A stretch of 34,722 nt of DNA, from positions 1 to 34,722 of the forward strand of contig CALQZW010000003.1 of the NCBI GenBank assembly GCA_943350045.1. Direction: 5' to 3'. This DNA is from Candidatus Nomurabacteria bacterium. Lineage in GTDB: Bacteria; Patescibacteriota; Minisyncoccia; Phycocordibacterales; UBA9973. Shown one piece after another: positions 25,297 to 28,432 of this stretch. The notes beneath the pieces are model-generated. The model did not search any database. It saw only the letters and a list, made by a program, of their open reading frames with translations, and was not told the DNA's origin. A program made the position numbers and the translations under genes. The stretch's first letter is position 1. Each line of letters starts with the position of its first letter.

Positions 25297-26214
25297 TTAT
25301 CCTGTCCAGTAATACGCGAGAATACTAAAATCAACTAAGTTTACTTTTCCGTCAGTATTAAGGTCTACTTTTGTCGGAGGAGTTCGCTTGTTGTACCAAA
25401 ACGCCAAGATAGAGTAGTCGACGATGTTTACTTTATAGTCACAGTTGAGGTCCCCCTTTCCTCCACCACAATATTTTTTCGCCTCAACATTTTTGTCACC
25501 GACGGCAAATTGCACTGGGCGTCCATACTCACTGGCTTCTCCCGGAAGCACTGCCTTGGCTTTTGCCTCATGGCCCCCTATTTCAAGTGGAGATGTGTCG
25601 AGCGTATACACATATGCACCCACTGCGTCCGTCTCTACAGAATGAAATGATTCAAACTCTGAATGCACTGAGATAACGACAGTACTCTCTGGAAGACTTT
25701 GTCCGAAGATTATCAAATTGTCACCCTGACGCACTTCGGACTTGTCGACGTCGATTGTCGGAGAAATGAATATTCCAGATACGTCTACCGTTGTTCCACT
25801 TCTAATTATGAGCGGAAAAGAAAAGTTTTCAGAACGACGGCCAGCCGAGTCTTCTCCATAGACAGTAAAGGTGTAGCTTCCTGCAGTCACGCTCGTAAAC
25901 GATACGGAAAAGCGAGCATCTGGACCTGCAATAGTAGTCACAGCAAGAGCTCCGTCTTGGAGAATGGATACGCGAGAGAGCGGATAGGCGCGTCCGCTAA
26001 AGTTTACGATAGTTGTAGGTCCAGGGAATCCACCACCTCCTCCACCTCCCCCTCCTCCTCCACCACCACCCCCAGGAGTGCCTGGCGGGTTTACCACTGC
26101 AGAGATTGTGAGTCCAGTGCTCAGGTCTACTGTTTGAGCACTCGCAGGGAAAAATCCTCCGAAAGATCCGGAAGCAAGAAGCGATAGTGTGAGCAAGAGC
26201 GATCGTAGTTTCAT
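25297..26214 (-). CDS. Secreted protein with Gly15 linker, Ig-like domains and C-terminal dockerin
   Basis: Signal peptide; duplicated Ca-binding loops GDLNCDYKVNIVDYSIL and VDLNTDGKVNLVDFSIL; no TM anchor. Start placed at ATG 26214. Confidence 0.85.
   Translation of the reverse strand: MKLRSLLLTLSLLASGSFGGFFPASAQTVDLSTGLTISAVVNPPGTPGGGGGGGGGGGGGGGFPGPTTIVNFSGRAYPLSRVSILQDGALAVTTIAGPDARFSVSFTSVTAGSYTFTVYGEDSAGRRSENFSFPLIIRSGTTVDVSGIFISPTIDVDKSEVRQGDNLIIFGQSLPESTVVISVHSEFESFHSVETDAVGAYVYTLDTSPLEIGGHEAKAKAVLPGEASEYGRPVQFAVGDKNVEAKKYCGGGKGDLNCDYKVNIVDYSILAFWYNKRTPPTKVDLNTDGKVNLVDFSILAYYWTG
26029..26073 (-). repeat. Poly-glycine tract (15 GGN codons)
   Basis: Counted directly; mixed GGA/GGT/GGG codons. 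Confidence 0.95.
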
Positions 26215-26224
26215 AGAGTAACGC

Positions 26225-26252
26225 ACGAAACCCCTTTTTCTCGGGGTTTCGT
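26225..26252. other. Intergenic stem-loop inside the surface operon
   Basis: ACGAAACCCC-N8-GGGGTTTCGT; no U-tract in the coding (-) direction. Confidence 0.7.
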
Positions 26253-26257
26253 TTTCT

Positions 26258-27346
26258 TTATTTCTTTTCCTTTTTAGCTACTACTTTCTTTACTGGGCGA
26301 AGTACGCGGTGCACGATGGATCGTTTTTTCTGTGCATGCATTTCTTCGAACATTTCTTCTGCGCGCTCAATAACCCATTTGTTGTAATGACGGATACTCA
26401 TGCGGACAAGGAAGAAAATGAGTGTTGAGATGACAAGAATGATGAGGAGTAACTGCCACGGAAGAACCCAGAATGAAAACTTTGCACTCGTTGTTTCTTT
26501 CTGAAATCCGTACGCAAGTTCAAGGTGCGCAACATATCGTCCGACTGCAAAGTTACGCCACTGATACTTCGCTTCATTAAAAAATCCACTGTGTTCTACA
26601 GGTTGTGCAGGATTTGGAATATCTTTTCCAACCCACGCAGTTTCAAAACGTCGAGTACTGCGCGGAAGAATGTTTCCGTCGGCAGGGTTGCCCGGAACTT
26701 CTTTTGCAGTAAACCCAAGAAGGTTCTTAATCTTTACGAGACCGACTGGCTTGATGCGGTCACTACCAGCATTTTCAAAACGGTATGTAAAATCAACTGG
26801 AAGCGCAGTATAAAATGTCTTTTTACCGACAGTAGCAAAATCTACGATTCCTCCTTTTTCACTAATTGGACCTGAGACGGAAAGAAGTACAAGAAGTCCT
26901 GTTTTTGCTCCAATAGAGACCTGCCCTGCTCCACTACTCTGTGGCGTAGTTCCCCAAAAGATTGCTCCGAAATGTCCTCCCGCAGATGCATCAGCCGGCA
27001 CTGAAACAGTGAACGGAACTGTTTTTGAAGACTTTGGTGCAATTACGATTTTTTCCGCAGCCTGCATCCATGTTCCGATTCCATCTTTTGGCTCAACAAA
27101 GGCTGGATTACCACTCTCTCCCTGAGCTTCAAAGTTTGCATATGAGATATAGAACGTTTCAGTTGTTGGACGCTCGTTATACAGAGTAACTTCTTCAGTA
27201 AGTGTCTGGCCTGGGTCAGCCTGAAGTTCAAGACGAATAGGAGTAAGAGTGAGCGCGTTCGCAGAGGCAGTAATGCTCAAGAAAAAAAGACTCGCGAGTA
27301 CGATTTTTCCCAGAAATGTTCGAGTGAAATGTGCGAGTATATTCAT
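26258..27346 (-). CDS. DUF916/WxL-interacting-like (PapD-fold-like) membrane-anchored chaperone
   Basis: Signal peptide; LTLTPIRLELQADPGQT...VTLYN, VPFTVSVPADASAGGHFGAI, RFENAG..IKPVG, GNILPRSTRRF, GRYVAHLELAYG, FWVLPW followed by a TM helix. Confidence 0.75.
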   Translation of the reverse strand: MNILAHFTRTFLGKIVLASLFFLSITASANALTLTPIRLELQADPGQTLTEEVTLYNERPTTETFYISYANFEAQGESGNPAFVEPKDGIGTWMQAAEKIVIAPKSSKTVPFTVSVPADASAGGHFGAIFWGTTPQSSGAGQVSIGAKTGLLVLLSVSGPISEKGGIVDFATVGKKTFYTALPVDFTYRFENAGSDRIKPVGLVKIKNLLGFTAKEVPGNPADGNILPRSTRRFETAWVGKDIPNPAQPVEHSGFFNEAKYQWRNFAVGRYVAHLELAYGFQKETTSAKFSFWVLPWQLLLIILVISTLIFFLVRMSIRHYNKWVIERAEEMFEEMHAQKKRSIVHRVLRPVKKVVAKKEKK

Positions 27347-27349
27347 ATA

Positions 27350-28432
27350 CTAGAAGGTTGCAGTTGCAACATAGGTAAGGGCTGTTGAGTACGCACCAGC
27401 GGCAGTAGTTGAAGAGATATTTGCTACATATGAAGCAGTGTACTCACAGTCAGCGGCAGCGGTAGACGTTGCAACTGCTGTTGTCGTAGAAGGCTGGAAT
27501 GAAAACGTGTCCGCAGTGCCGTAGTTTGTTGCGTATGAACACGTACCTGCGTTTGTCACAACATCAGTACCAACGTTTGGTGTTGCGTTGTCACGAAGAT
27601 TGATTCCGAATCCTTCCGTTCCTGGAGCAGAAACAGCTCCGGTTACTCCGTAGGCATCAATAGTATTTGCCCCACTTGTAAGAGTTGGACCGTTGTAGGT
27701 AATAGCAAACCCTCCAGCGGAGTTTGTTGCGATTTCAACACTATGACTCCCCGTCCCTGGAGCACCCGCAGTAAGCGTTCCAAGTGCCACAGTACTTGAT
27801 CCAAGCGCAAATGTAAGTGTAGGGTTTACTGTAGCACTGACAGTAACCACTGCATTGTCTTCAATAACTACTGCACCAGAACCCACGTCTCCGTTAGATC
27901 CAGTGATTGTATAAATAGATGAATCAGTGTCGGCGTTGGCGTTTGTCATAGTACCAGTACCCGATGCAGTTGTTCCGTGAATTGTAAATAAAATTGTCGC
28001 ATTTGCAGATGACGCAGTATATGAGCCAGCGGCAACAACAGTAAACACATTTGTACTTGTGTTAATTGTCACACACACGTTATTTACTCCAGCAGCACAC
28101 GAAGGAGCTACTCCACTTGATGTACTCACAGCATTGACTGTTCGCGCAGTTCCATCGTTGAACGAAAAATCAGCGGTCTGCCATGAGCCAATACTGTTGA
28201 GAGTAAAATCAGTATCACTGAAGTTTATAGCAAAATCTTCACCAGTAGCAAATGTGTCTCCACCGACAAGTGTCCACTCAAGTACGTGCGTAGCCGGAGT
28301 ATTTTTTGCCTGAGTAGACATGGCATCAGACACGTCTGCGTAGTTTGCAGCAAACGTAATCCCCGCTCCAAATGGCAAAGAGAAAAGTGCCACGAGAAGC
28401 CCACTTGTAAGTACCTGAAGTTTTTTTAGCAT
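27350..28432 (-). CDS. Secreted Thr/Ala/Ser-rich subunit with C-terminal WxL-like/pilin-like domain
   Basis: Signal peptide; ends YVANISSTTAAGAYSTALTYVATATF; paralogous to the C-terminus of the upstream giant protein. Confidence 0.75.
   Translation of the reverse strand: MLKKLQVLTSGLLVALFSLPFGAGITFAANYADVSDAMSTQAKNTPATHVLEWTLVGGDTFATGEDFAINFSDTDFTLNSIGSWQTADFSFNDGTARTVNAVSTSSGVAPSCAAGVNNVCVTINTSTNVFTVVAAGSYTASSANATILFTIHGTTASGTGTMTNANADTDSSIYTITGSNGDVGSGAVVIEDNAVVTVSATVNPTLTFALGSSTVALGTLTAGAPGTGSHSVEIATNSAGGFAITYNGPTLTSGANTIDAYGVTGAVSAPGTEGFGINLRDNATPNVGTDVVTNAGTCSYATNYGTADTFSFQPSTTTAVATSTAAADCEYTASYVANISSTTAAGAYSTALTYVATATF

What the first reader, a model, noticed from the sequence alone, without database searches (positions are those of the whole stretch)
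26086..27847. Donor-strand-like motif in the subunit and the dockerin protein but absent from the giant adhesin
Seen: the 360-aa subunit has VTVSATVNP (27821-27847) immediately before its C-terminal domain (TLTFAL...). The dockerin protein has a near copy, LTISAVVNP (26086-26112), near its mature N-terminus, isolated by a Gly15 tether and with no such domain following. The giant protein enters the same domain (TISFSL...) without this strand. Known, from memory: the class 5 pilin CfaB donor strand is VEKNITVTASVDP and its C-terminus reads AGNYSGVVSLVMT, similar to AGAYSTALTYVAT here. Inference: this is the acceptor-only tip / donor+acceptor shaft / donor-only terminator logic of a pilus.
Basis: partly seen in the sequence, partly recalled or inferred. 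Interest (0 to 1): 0.88.

Follow-up and report, generated by a model that had tools for sequence, protein, structure and literature searches.

The report
Dockerin-anchored donor-strand pilus of CPR bacterium
The short strand shared by the pilus subunit and the dockerin protein most likely is a donor strand of a Pam-type pilus, a kind described in 2026, but here the base piece seems to be held to the cell by a dockerin-cohesin joint instead of a membrane helix.

Summary
VTVSATVNP and LTISAVVNP sit exactly where stated. The giant protein has no such strand. It matches a kind of pilus already in print: the Pam pilus of CPR bacteria (preprint PMC13278184) and the related Elr/WxL pilus (preprint 10.64898/2026.10.17.759780).

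- The NCBIfam model CPR_Pam_pilin_C hits the 360-aa subunit (126 bits, cut-off 55) and the giant (75 bits).
- The strand is conserved in 12 of 12 neighbouring dockerin proteins and 13 of 13 pilins of related genomes.
- A co-fold of the dockerin protein's N-terminus with the pilin C-terminal domain scored 0.66, best control 0.02. The strand lies between the domain's first and last strands.
- The next gene folds like WxLIP and chaperone-usher chaperones and has a C-terminal membrane helix.

New here:
- The terminator is no PamR homologue.
- It carries the genome's only dockerin.
- It lies beside the genome's only two cohesin-like, membrane-anchored proteins.
- The tip is a giant adhesin.

Verdict: a new variant of a known kind.

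The parts
28486..34722 (-). Giant tip adhesin, 2078 aa seen, 5' end cut by the contig end. It has a repetitive Thr/Gly/Ser-rich body and a C-terminal acceptor-only Pam domain.
   Evidence: Translation. NF058581 hit at 28489-28872, 75 bits against a cut-off of 55. No donor-strand pattern in any of its 2078 residues. Tip genes with open frames of 253 to 4038 aa (several fixed only by the fetched loci) stand in the same position in relatives.
28489..28872 (-). Acceptor (Pam pilin C) domain of the giant protein
   Evidence: NF058581 match, E 2.7e-21. Entered as CWAFS|TISFSL with no linker strand before it.
27350..28432 (-). Shaft pilin, 360 aa: signal peptide, N-terminal beta-sandwich, linker donor strand, C-terminal acceptor domain
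   Evidence: NF058581, 126.2 bits against a cut-off of 55. AF2 model with pLDDT 94: strands 32-191, linker 192-205 without secondary structure, strands 206-358.
27821..27847 (-). Linker donor strand of the pilin, VTVSATVNP (residues 196-204)
   Evidence: In 103 pilins: V196 103/103, V/I198 103/103, A200 91/103, V202 95/103, P204 95/103.
27353..27820 (-). Acceptor C-terminal domain of the pilin (residues 205-360)
   Evidence: NF058581 match. In the co-fold, residues 206-220 and 343-360 line the groove that takes the strand. The only domain-specific structural match is the donor-strand-exchange fibril TLP-1b, 9ikk: Z 7.5, rmsd 3.1, 131 aligned.
26258..27346 (-). Membrane-anchored two-domain chaperone-like protein (362 aa, C-terminal helix 297-349)
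   Evidence: AF2 model with pLDDT 91. Foldseek: WxLIP 9i1y/9i25 at E 1.9e-12, then CfaA, CsuC, Caf1M, FimC, PapD. Weak Pfam WxLIP_PGBD hit, 22.8 bits against a cut-off of 27.3. Only copy in the genome.
25297..26214 (-). Donor-strand-only terminator/anchor protein: signal peptide, strand, Gly15 tether, Ig-like domains, dockerin
   Evidence: The ATG start at 26214 is inferred from homologue P0005, which begins MKLRS. The family has 1260 members at E<=1e-5.
26086..26112 (-). N-terminal donor strand LTISAVVNP
   Evidence: In 60 family members: I/V/L at position 37 60/60, S/T38 58/60, A39 55/60, V41 57/60. Residues 27-44 make the interface in the co-fold.
26029..26073 (-). Gly15 tether
   Evidence: Run of 15 Gly, residues 52-66. 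A Gly- or Gly/Ser-rich run follows the strand in 10 of 12 related loci.
25315..25458 (-). Type I dockerin module, the only one found in the genome
   Evidence: Pfam Dockerin_1, 28.4 bits and 31.5 bits, cut-off 22.9. One match in the 627-kb genome.
24375..25334 (-). Cohesin-like protein 1 with a C-terminal membrane helix. The likely start is the ATG at 25292 (inference).
   Evidence: No Pfam hit of its own. The profile of 10 orthologues matches the second family at hhalign probability 99.8%, E 3e-30, and matches R. flavefaciens scaffoldin cohesins 5aoz at E 0.0031 and 5m2o at E 0.0095. Present after the dockerin gene in 12 of 12 loci.
23554..24411 (-). Cohesin protein 2 with a C-terminal membrane helix
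   Evidence: Pfam Cohesin, 25.9 bits against a cut-off of 24.1, E 1.3e-5. Together with the gene above it is the only match to the cohesin-like profile in the genome.

Best explanation
The genes from 23554 to 34722 on the minus strand encode a Pam-type pilus of a CPR (Patescibacteria) bacterium, built by donor-strand exchange without an usher.

Proposed assembly:
1. All parts are exported by signal peptides.
2. The membrane-anchored chaperone (26258-27346) holds the open C-terminal domain of each subunit.
3. The giant protein has only the open domain and starts the fibre as the distal adhesin.
4. Each 360-aa pilin puts its linker strand (VTVSATVNP) into the groove of the subunit before it and offers its own groove to the next.
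5. The dockerin protein has the strand (LTISAVVNP) at its mature N-terminus but no groove. When it inserts, growth stops.
6. Its Gly15 tether, two Ig-like domains and dockerin then tie the fibre base to one of the two membrane-anchored cohesin proteins encoded next door.

Shown here: the motifs, their conservation, the domain families, the folds and the gene order. Supported by a model only: strand insertion. Inferred: polymerisation, the order of assembly, termination and dockerin-cohesin anchoring.
For: Family. NF058581 (CPR_Pam_pilin_C) hits the pilin at 126.2 bits and the giant at 75 bits, cut-off 55. These are the only two matches in the genome.

Anatomy. The AF2 pilin model (pLDDT 94) has two beta domains joined by an unstructured linker at 192-205, as described for PamA/B (PMC13278184, Results read in full).

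Conservation.
- The gene order tip, pilin, chaperone, dockerin protein, cohesin-TM is found in the window and in 11 of 11 fetched loci of related genomes.
- The strand is in 12 of 12 dockerin proteins and 13 of 13 pilins. It is absent from the 7 of 7 aligned tip proteins and from the giant.
- Column counts give the same register, hydrophobic-x-[VI]-[ST]-A-x-V, in 103 pilins and 60 dockerin proteins.
- The best match to the pilin-linker PSSM lies in the first 60 residues in 46 of 60 dockerin proteins.
- Two further genomes whose pilins the HMM missed have the same operon and strand.

Co-fold. Pilin 205-360 with dockerin protein 27-62 gave ipSAE 0.71, 0.64 and 0.66 (median 0.66). The best of 3 controls was 0.02. 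Partner pLDDT was at least 59, and the runs agreed in at least 98% of contacts. That mark was reached by 58 of 80 solved complexes and 2 of 110 mismatched pairs; these counts hold only roughly here because my own alignments were used. The strand runs antiparallel to the C-terminal strand (pairs 350:37, 352:35, 348:39) and parallel to 214-219 (pairs 215:37, 217:39).

Chaperone. The model (pLDDT 91) has two Ig-like domains and a C-terminal helix. Its best matches are WxLIP (E 1.9e-12) and the chaperone-usher chaperones CfaA, CsuC, Caf1M, FimC and PapD.

Anchor. There is one dockerin and there are two cohesin-like proteins in the whole 627-kb genome, and all three are adjacent.

No usher was found.
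Against: - Nothing here is experimental for this organism.
- The window's own 9-mer pair is not significant by the PSSM test: 1.0 bit against 1.9 bits for the 95th percentile of shuffles.
- The co-fold is a model's own confidence. It may draw on solved donor-strand complexes, and it used my own alignments.
- Pilin-pilin, pilin-giant and dockerin-cohesin pairs were not co-folded, because only one job was allowed.
- The first cohesin-like protein has no Pfam hit of its own, and only 1 of 9 orthologues has a weak one. The cohesin call for the second is just over the cut-off (25.9 against 24.1 bits).
- Among the 62 short-head homologues, 8 matched neither pattern, though most are near-motifs by eye.
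- The chaperone misses the Pfam WxLIP cut-off and has no NCBIfam hit.
- The genome is 86.6% complete, so 'only' dockerin and 'no' usher or PamR hold for what is assembled.
Confidence: 0.72

Rival explanations
1. The dockerin protein is an anchor adaptor rather than a terminator of a polymer. Its strand plugs the groove of the giant adhesin, or of a single pilin, and so hangs single adhesin molecules on the membrane cohesins. The 360-aa protein would then be a spacer of one or a few copies, not a long fibre.
For: The giant's domain belongs to the same family as the pilin's, so the same strand could fit it. Only one pilin gene is present in most loci. The co-fold says nothing about polymer length. 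The Elr preprint (section 12) reports operons that lack tips or anchors, so compositions vary.
Against: The pilin keeps both a strictly conserved donor strand and an acceptor domain (V196 in 103 of 103). That combination is what a repeating unit needs. PamA/B of the same family form long filaments by cryo-EM (PMC13278184).
Confidence: 0.12
2. The shared 9-mer is a compositional coincidence of Val/Thr/Ser/Ala-rich beta proteins. The N-terminal strand of the dockerin protein has another role, for example an export or processing signal, or a strand that packs on its own Ig domains or on a cohesin.
For: The window's strand scores only 1.0 bit with the pilin PSSM, within the range of shuffles. The strict pattern was written post hoc. 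The longer (long-head) homologues among the 120 (56) mostly carry other N-terminal modules instead of the strand.
Against: - The motif has the same register and the same invariant positions in two unrelated protein families.
- It is always at the mature N-terminus and cut off from the folded part by a Gly-rich tether in 10 of 12 loci.
- It was seen next to pilin and chaperone genes in 14 of 14 operons examined of this type.
- The co-fold scored 0.66 against 0.02 for the controls.
Confidence: 0.07
3. The strand inserts as proposed, but the dockerin does not bind the neighbouring cohesin proteins. It would bind a cohesin or glycan on the host cell, or on another CPR cell, so that the 'terminator' is a second adhesive end or a cross-linker rather than a membrane anchor.
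For: Dockerin-cohesin binding was not tested here. The first cohesin-like protein is weakly supported by sequence. CPR bacteria live attached to hosts (PMC13278184, abstract).
Against: The only dockerin and the only two cohesin-like proteins of the genome are adjacent. They stay adjacent in 12 of 12 loci, and also in loci where the dockerin protein has another head. Both cohesin proteins end in a membrane helix.
Confidence: 0.09

Closest known systems
Pam pilus of CPR bacteria (Ca. Mycosynbacter amalyticus PamA/B/E, PamT, PamC/D, PamR; preprint PMC13278184, 2026)
   Same: - The same pilin C-terminal domain family (NF058581, over the cut-off).
- A two-domain pilin whose inter-domain linker is the donor strand.
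- A tip that has the open domain without a strand.
- Membrane-anchored chaperones of PapD/FimC-like fold.
- A last protein with only an N-terminal strand.
- No usher.
   Different: - The terminator is not PamR. The PamR model NF058578 finds nothing in this genome, and 0 of 61 relatives reach its cut-off.
- It ends in a dockerin instead of a membrane helix and lies beside two cohesin-TM genes. The words dockerin and cohesin do not occur in the preprint's main text.
- The tip is a protein of more than 2000 aa, not the single-domain PamT.
- There is one chaperone gene, not two.
- The named homologues are from the Parcubacteria group, whereas the preprint names Saccharimonadia and Microgenomatia.
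Elr/WxL pilus of Enterococcus faecalis (ElrA-E; preprint 10.64898/2026.10.17.759780, Oct 2026)
   Same: - The same logic: a large tip adhesin with a C-terminal acceptor-only domain (ElrA), a donor+acceptor pilin (ElrD/C), and a small donor-strand-only base protein (ElrB).
- A membrane-anchored DUF916-type chaperone (ElrE).
- The window's chaperone model matches solved WxLIP best.
   Different: - No WxL Pfam hit on the pilin: 0 families at E<=1.
- The donor strand of the pilin is an inter-domain linker, not the N-terminus.
- The base is held by a dockerin, not by LPXTG and sortase.
- The preprint states that the system is confined to Bacillota.
Classical and alternate chaperone-usher pili (Pap/Fim; class 5 CFA/I with CfaA/CfaB/CfaE)
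   Same: - Donor-strand exchange.
- An adhesin at the tip, and a terminator that stops growth (PapH-like role).
- A two-domain Ig-like chaperone. CfaA, CsuC, Caf1M, FimC and PapD are all matched by the chaperone model.
   Different: - No usher was found, and no outer membrane is expected.
- The chaperone is membrane-anchored.
- No sequence relation to solved pilins was detected: the pilin profile finds 0 PDB chains at E<=10.
Cellulosome-type cohesin-dockerin anchoring
   Same: A type I dockerin with two calcium-loop repeats (DLNCDYKVNIVD and DLNTDGKVNLVD, read), next to cohesin-bearing anchor proteins.
   Different: The cargo would be the base of a pilus, not an enzyme or scaffoldin. The anchors are single-cohesin proteins with a C-terminal membrane helix. 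Binding was not tested.
TLP-1a/b environmental fibrils (CryoSeek, PMC11494351; PDB 9ikk)
   Same: This is the only solved chain whose match is specific to the pilin's C-terminal domain: Z 7.5, rmsd 3.1 A, 131 aligned, model residues 199-359. It is also a donor-strand-exchange fibre, in which the strand fills a cleft between the first and last strands (passages read).
   Different: The TLP-1 protomer has one domain and an N-terminal strand, and the donor is protomer n+4. A Z under 8 may mean only a common arrangement.

Membership tests
Pam pilus system (CPR) | Pilin C-terminal domain matching NCBIfam NF058581 (CPR_Pam_pilin_C) above its cut-off | tested here: met
   Pilin 126.2 bits and giant 75 bits, cut-off 55.
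Pam pilus system (CPR) | Two-domain pilin whose inter-domain linker strand is the donated strand | tested here: met
   The AF2 model has an N-terminal sandwich at 32-191, a linker at 192-205 and a C-terminal domain at 206-358. The linker is the most conserved stretch. That this strand is actually donated between pilins was not modelled here.
Pam pilus system (CPR) | Tip subunit with the open domain but no linker strand (PamT) | tested here: inconclusive
   The giant has the domain and no strand, so the role fits. It is not a PamT equivalog, however. NF058579 matched only the pilin, at 92.1 bits, below the cut-off of 240. It did not list the giant at E<=1.
Pam pilus system (CPR) | Membrane-anchored chaperone of PapD/FimC-like fold (PamC/D) | tested here: met
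   Two Ig-like domains plus a C-terminal helix at 297-349. The model matches WxLIP, CfaA, CsuC, Caf1M, FimC and PapD. No sequence comparison with PamC/D themselves was possible.
Pam pilus system (CPR) | PamR terminator: RbmA-like, N-terminal strand, C-terminal membrane helix (NF058578) | tested here: not met
   No match at E<=1 in the genome, which is 86.6% complete. Of 61 relatives, 0 are over the cut-off. A dockerin protein with an N-terminal strand stands in its place.
Pam pilus system (CPR) | Filament assembled by donor-strand exchange | not testable with these tools
   Only a co-fold of the terminator strand with the pilin domain was run.
Elr/WxL pilus (Bacillota) | WxL domain on pilin and tip | tested here: not met
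   Pfam lists no family for the pilin at E<=1 and only a weak G8 hit for the giant.
Elr/WxL pilus (Bacillota) | DUF916/WxLIP chaperone with a membrane helix | tested here: inconclusive
   Pfam WxLIP_PGBD reaches 22.8 bits, under the cut-off of 27.3. At the fold level, the best PDB matches are WxLIP 9i1y/9i25.
Elr/WxL pilus (Bacillota) | LPXTG base protein anchored by sortase | tested here: not met
   The base protein ends ...DFSILAYYWTG in a dockerin and has no LPXTG (read). A sortase was not searched for.
Chaperone-usher pili | Outer-membrane usher | tested here: not met
   Pfam Usher PF00577 has no match at E<=0.01 in the genome, which is 86.6% complete.
Chaperone-usher pili | Sequence relation of the pilin to solved CU pilins, CfaB included | tested here: inconclusive
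   The profile of 103 pilins finds 0 PDB chains at E<=10. The fold of the C-terminal domain alone was not searched.
Cohesin-dockerin system | Dockerin module above the Pfam cut-off | tested here: met
   28.4 and 31.5 bits, cut-off 22.9.
Cohesin-dockerin system | Cohesin module above the Pfam cut-off | tested here: met
   The protein at 23554-24411 reaches 25.9 bits, cut-off 24.1. The protein at 24375-25334 is linked only through a profile-profile match to it (99.8%) and weak hits to solved cohesins.
Cohesin-dockerin system | Calcium-dependent binding of the two modules | not tested

The most novel reading that the evidence does not exclude
A donor-strand-exchange pilus is fastened to the cell by a dedicated non-covalent dockerin-cohesin joint. 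That would be a third way of anchoring such fibres, after the membrane helix of PamR and the sortase/LPXTG route of ElrB.

The cassette of Gly tether, Ig domains and dockerin, plus membrane cohesins, looks like a general plug-in surface display system of these CPR bacteria. Its N-terminal head can be a bare donor strand (for the pilus) or another module. The link could also be releasable, for example by calcium, letting the cell shed or swap a pilus that carries an adhesin of more than 2000 aa.
Probability: 0.5. Interest if true: 0.7.

Novelty: new variant of a known kind. Interest (0 to 1): 0.6.

Why it matters
CPR bacteria are tiny, mostly uncultured cells that live attached to hosts, and how they hold on is largely unknown. 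This locus shows that the recently described Pam-type pilus reaches into lineages whose named relatives belong to the Parcubacteria group. It also shows that the pilus can carry a giant adhesin at the tip. Its base piece has been exchanged for one that would dock on membrane cohesins.

The chaperone's best structural match is WxLIP of Firmicutes. This links the Pam system with the Elr/WxL system, which its authors report as confined to Bacillota. Together they point to one wide family of usher-free donor-strand pili in bacteria without an outer membrane.

The proposal is directly testable with four small recombinant pieces: the peptide, the pilin domain, the dockerin and the cohesins.

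Tried and rejected
- Sequence search of the pilin and of a 103-row pilin profile against solved structures gave no hit at E<=10. No sequence link to CfaB, WxL proteins or PamA/B could therefore be shown.
- Foldseek with the whole pilin model gave only generic tandem-Ig matches (integrins, MSCRAMMs, FimH) with rmsd about 20-29 A, which is uninformative.
- The wide VIA-align search was filled by the N-terminal domain (YcnI, sortase pilins, cohesins; Z 7-10). 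Only one row covered the C-terminal domain.
- Rfam found nothing in the window.
- I guessed NCBIfam numbers near NF058579-581 to find other Pam models. NF058578 is PamR. NF058580, 058582, 058577 and 058576 are unrelated families, and NF058575 does not exist. No PamC/D, PamA/B or PamE models were located.
- Taxonomy could not be settled. A same-genus record is titled 'uncultured Candidatus Saccharibacteria bacterium'. Named homologues are Kaiserbacteria, Minisyncoccia, Pacebacteria, Nomurabacteria, Paceibacterota and Uhrbacteria. Kaiserbacteria lie in the Parcubacteria group.
- Supplements of both preprints are closed. Figures S5 and S7-S9 of the Pam preprint may show other terminators or anchors that I could not see.
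- A paper search for dockerin or cohesin together with CPR terms listed nothing relevant among the 12 shown of 119. So 'not in print' holds only for that search and for the main text of PMC13278184.
- I considered a classical chaperone-usher system and rejected it: no usher was found and the chaperone is membrane-anchored.

Full report
**What is in the window.** The last 11 kb of the window (23554-34722) carries six genes in a row on the minus strand:
- a giant ORF, open at the contig end (28486-34722, 2078 aa seen);
- a 360-aa protein (27350-28432);
- a 362-aa protein with a C-terminal membrane helix (26258-27346);
- a protein of about 305 aa that ends in a dockerin (25297-26214);
- two proteins with a signal peptide, a cohesin-like domain and a C-terminal membrane helix (24375-25334 and 23554-24411).

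The window is the whole of contig C3 of a 627-kb genome in 41 contigs, 86.6% complete. That size fits a CPR/Patescibacteria cell.

**The observation.** They share 6 of 9 residues. The first lies directly before TLTFAL at residue 205 of the 360-aa protein. The second lies 8 residues after the likely signal-peptide cut, and PGTP and exactly 15 glycines follow it. The giant enters the homologous domain as CWAFS|TISFSL and has no such pattern anywhere in its 2078 residues.

Taken alone, the pair is weak statistically. The strict pattern occurs 3 times in about 194,621 aa of the genome against 0.78 expected, but I wrote it after seeing the pair. A PSSM from 99 other pilin linkers gives the window's dockerin strand 1.0 bit, below the 95th percentile of shuffles at 1.9 bits.

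**What it is.** NCBIfam holds a model named CPR_Pam_pilin_C (NF058581). It matches the 360-aa protein at 126.2 bits and the giant's C-terminus at 75 bits, cut-off 55, and nothing else in the genome. The model stems from a 2026 preprint (PMC13278184); I read its abstract and the whole Results.
- Cryo-EM of filaments of Ca. [quoted passage not shown]
- From AlphaFold models the authors proposed a single-domain tip without a linker (PamT), membrane-anchored PapD/FimC-like chaperones (PamC/D), and a terminator (PamR) with an N-terminal strand and a C-terminal membrane helix.

A second preprint (10.64898/2026.10.17.759780; abstract and sections 7, 9 and 12 read) shows the same logic for the Elr/WxL pilus of Enterococcus faecalis:
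- ElrD polymerises by donor-strand exchange.
- ElrE (DUF916) is the membrane chaperone.
- ElrA is a large tip adhesin with only the acceptor domain.
- ElrB is a small protein with only a donor strand and an LPXTG anchor.

**Tests of the scheme in this locus.**
1. Fold of the pilin. The AF2 model (103-row alignment, pLDDT 94) has strands at 32-191, an unstructured linker at 192-205 and strands at 206-358.
2. Conservation in relatives.
   - The Pam domain model hits 12 of 61 genomes, the own one included. All 12 are in the same taxonomic family, and each has two or three adjacent domain genes.
   - I fetched the 11 other loci. All show the order tip, pilin, chaperone-like, dockerin protein, cohesin-like TM protein. 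A second cohesin-like gene follows in 10 of the 12 loci.
   - All 12 dockerin proteins carry the strand right after the signal peptide, for example GITVSATVGS, VVSISATVGA, NITITAQVVS and GVTISAEVVS. In 10 of 12 a Gly- or Gly/Ser-rich tether follows.
   - All 13 pilins have V-x-[VI]-[TS]-A-x-V before the domain. The 7 tip proteins in that alignment do not.
3. Wider families.
   - The dockerin protein has 1260 homologues at E<=1e-5.
   - Among the best 120, 62 have a short head of at most 95 residues before the first Ig domain. Of these, 39 meet the strict pattern, 15 an alternating hydrophobic pattern and 8 neither. Of 56 with a long head, none meets the strict pattern. Two could not be placed.
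   - Column counts give the same register in both families. In pilins: V196 103/103, V/I198 103/103, A200 91/103, V202 95/103. In dockerin proteins: I/V/L37 60/60, A39 55/60, V41 57/60.
   - The best hit of the pilin-linker PSSM falls in the first 60 residues in 46 of 60 dockerin proteins.
4. Co-fold. Pilin residues 205-360 with dockerin-protein residues 27-62 (counted from the ATG), both with alignments, gave ipSAE 0.71, 0.64 and 0.66.
   - The best of 3 controls was 0.02. Partner pLDDT was at least 59, and the runs agreed in at least 98% of contacts.
   - The mark was reached by 58 of 80 solved complexes and 2 of 110 mismatched pairs. These counts hold only roughly here, because my own alignments were used.
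   - Residues 27-44 of the partner touch 206-220 and 343-360 of the domain. The pairs 350:37, 352:35 and 348:39 show the strand antiparallel to the C-terminal strand. The pairs 215:37 and 217:39 show it parallel to 214-219.
   - The strand therefore completes the sheet between the first and last strands, as in donor-strand exchange. This is a model's confidence and may lean on solved donor-strand complexes.
5. The chaperone. The model of the 362-aa protein (117 rows, pLDDT 91) has two Ig-like domains and a helix at 297-349. Its best solved matches are WxLIP of E. faecium (9i1y and 9i25, E 1.9e-12), then CfaA, CsuC, Caf1M, DraB, FimC and PapD. By sequence it only grazes Pfam WxLIP_PGBD, at 22.8 bits against a cut-off of 27.3. 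It is the only copy in the genome, and no usher was found.

**What differs from the published systems.**
- The PamR model (NF058578) finds nothing in this genome. In 61 relatives it finds only partial hits of at most 28 bits in large proteins, against a cut-off of 300.
- In PamR's place stands a protein with the strand, a Gly15 tether, Ig-like domains (Pfam Big_6 just under its cut-off) and a type I dockerin.
- This is the only dockerin in the genome.
- The only two matches to the cohesin-like profile are the two genes directly downstream.
- The second of these passes the Pfam Cohesin cut-off, 25.9 against 24.1 bits. The first is tied to it by a profile-profile match (99.8%, E 3e-30) and by weak hits to solved R. 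flavefaciens cohesins (E 0.0031 and 0.0095). Alone it has no Pfam hit, and only 1 of 9 orthologues has a weak one.
- Both end in a membrane helix.
- The Pam preprint's main text contains neither 'dockerin' nor 'cohesin'.
- The tip also differs. It is a protein of more than 2000 aa, and in relatives it ranges from 253 to 4038 aa, rather than a bare domain.

**A modular picture.** A search of the 61 genomes with the dockerin-protein profile, followed by fetching seven more loci, gave three results:
- Two genomes that the Pam HMM had missed (G008, G002) have the same operon, with divergent pilin C-termini and with the strands LVGVTAVVG and LVGVSAEVG.
- Two more distant operons (G049, G051) have small pilins with an N-terminal strand, a chaperone-like TM protein, and a dockerin protein whose N-terminus is a different beta-like stretch (AVLNVTVLYA, TTLRVVVVGD).
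- In three genomes (G034, G048, G019) the dockerin protein has another N-terminal module and no pilin or chaperone gene beside it in the fetched stretch. Cohesin-like TM genes still follow it.

So the tether-Ig-dockerin protein with its membrane cohesins looks like a general anchoring cassette. In pilus operons, its head is a bare donor strand.

**Most likely mechanism.** All parts are exported by the Sec pathway. The membrane chaperone keeps each open domain foldable. The giant adhesin starts the fibre. Pilins add at the base by inserting their linker into the preceding groove. The dockerin protein's N-terminal strand fills the last groove and ends growth, because it offers no new groove. Its dockerin then binds a membrane cohesin, and the Gly15 run serves as a flexible joint. 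Domains, motifs, conservation and gene order are shown. Strand insertion is supported by a model. Polymerisation, order, termination and dockerin-cohesin binding are inferred. I put this at 0.72.

**Rivals.**
- The protein may anchor single adhesin molecules rather than cap a polymer (0.12).
- The strand may insert, but the dockerin may bind something other than the neighbouring cohesins (0.09).
- The motif may be a compositional coincidence with another role (0.07).

The recalled strings could not be checked. They are in no paper of the library, and the pilin profile finds no solved chain. The likeness to class 5 pili appears only in the chaperone fold (CfaA). The one solved chain that matches the pilin's C-terminal domain specifically is the donor-strand fibril TLP-1b: 9ikk, Z 7.5, rmsd 3.1 A, 131 aligned (passages of PMC11494351 read). 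At Z under 8 that is a hint only.

**Verdict.** The kind of system is already known (two preprints of 2026 and an NCBIfam model). The dockerin-cohesin base and the giant tip make this a new variant of it. Interest 0.6.

Supplements of the papers could not be read.

Noticed in passing
window 12460-13521 (-), within 12333-13521: An ORF of 353 aa matches Pfam BBP2 (OmpL-like beta-barrel porin) at E 8.9e-27. That is odd for a CPR bacterium thought to lack an outer membrane. The stretch also carries many overlapping ORFs on both strands. Rfam finds no RNA there.
   Followed up: partly
window 5030-8215 (-) and 9605-11920 (-): A Type ISP restriction-modification enzyme (Type_ISP_C, E 1.5e-84, with N6_Mtase) and an SMC/AAA_13-like ATPase nearby. 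This is possibly a defence island.
   Followed up: no
window 14240-15016 (+): An AbiEii nucleotidyltransferase toxin domain (E 3e-20). It follows a 206-aa ORF without a Pfam hit that could be its antitoxin.
   Followed up: no
window 19906-22230 (-): A VirD4/TraG-like coupling ATPase (TrwB_AAD_bind, TraG-D_C) fused to a treble-clef zinc finger and a long Pro/Ala-rich tail.
   Followed up: no
window 18420-19856 (-): A secreted protein with a Lamin Tail Domain (E 9.6e-20), a PKD-like domain and a C-terminal membrane helix.
   Followed up: no
G000 contig C25, ORF 1936-4165 (+): The third and only other occurrence of the strict strand pattern in the genome (LSVTAPV, residue 325 of a 743-aa ORF). 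Probably chance.
   Followed up: no
proteins P0028-P0124 (long-head homologues); loci L074-L076: Many homologues of the dockerin protein keep the Gly run, Ig domains and dockerin but carry other N-terminal modules. These include FnIII-like domains, Cys-rich CGDG...EQCDG modules (some preceded by a strand such as VEITATV), and an SSxNFxLENP module. The last type lies next to cohesin-TM genes without pilin genes.
   Followed up: partly
loci L077 (G049) and L078 (G051): Divergent operons with single-domain pilins of 230-235 aa. Their donor-like strand is N-terminal (WxL/Elr-like layout) and their C-termini read ...GDLTYTTVVNP and ...CPLTFTATAN. A 306-308-aa chaperone-like TM protein and a dockerin protein follow. 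This may be a bridge between the Pam and WxL layouts.
   Followed up: no
tip genes of related loci (table): The tip gene's open frame ranges from 253 and 335 aa to 1982-4038 aa among relatives, so the adhesin payload is highly variable.
   Followed up: no
window 28486-34722 (-): The giant's body holds long internal repeats, for example the recurring ...TLFTR.ASG.FTAGTSTI.V.SDADITFL.G.T.FRNVTFAPVLTANR.YT.GS.P... (read). A weak G8 domain hit was seen (E 0.042). The repeats were not analysed.
   Followed up: no
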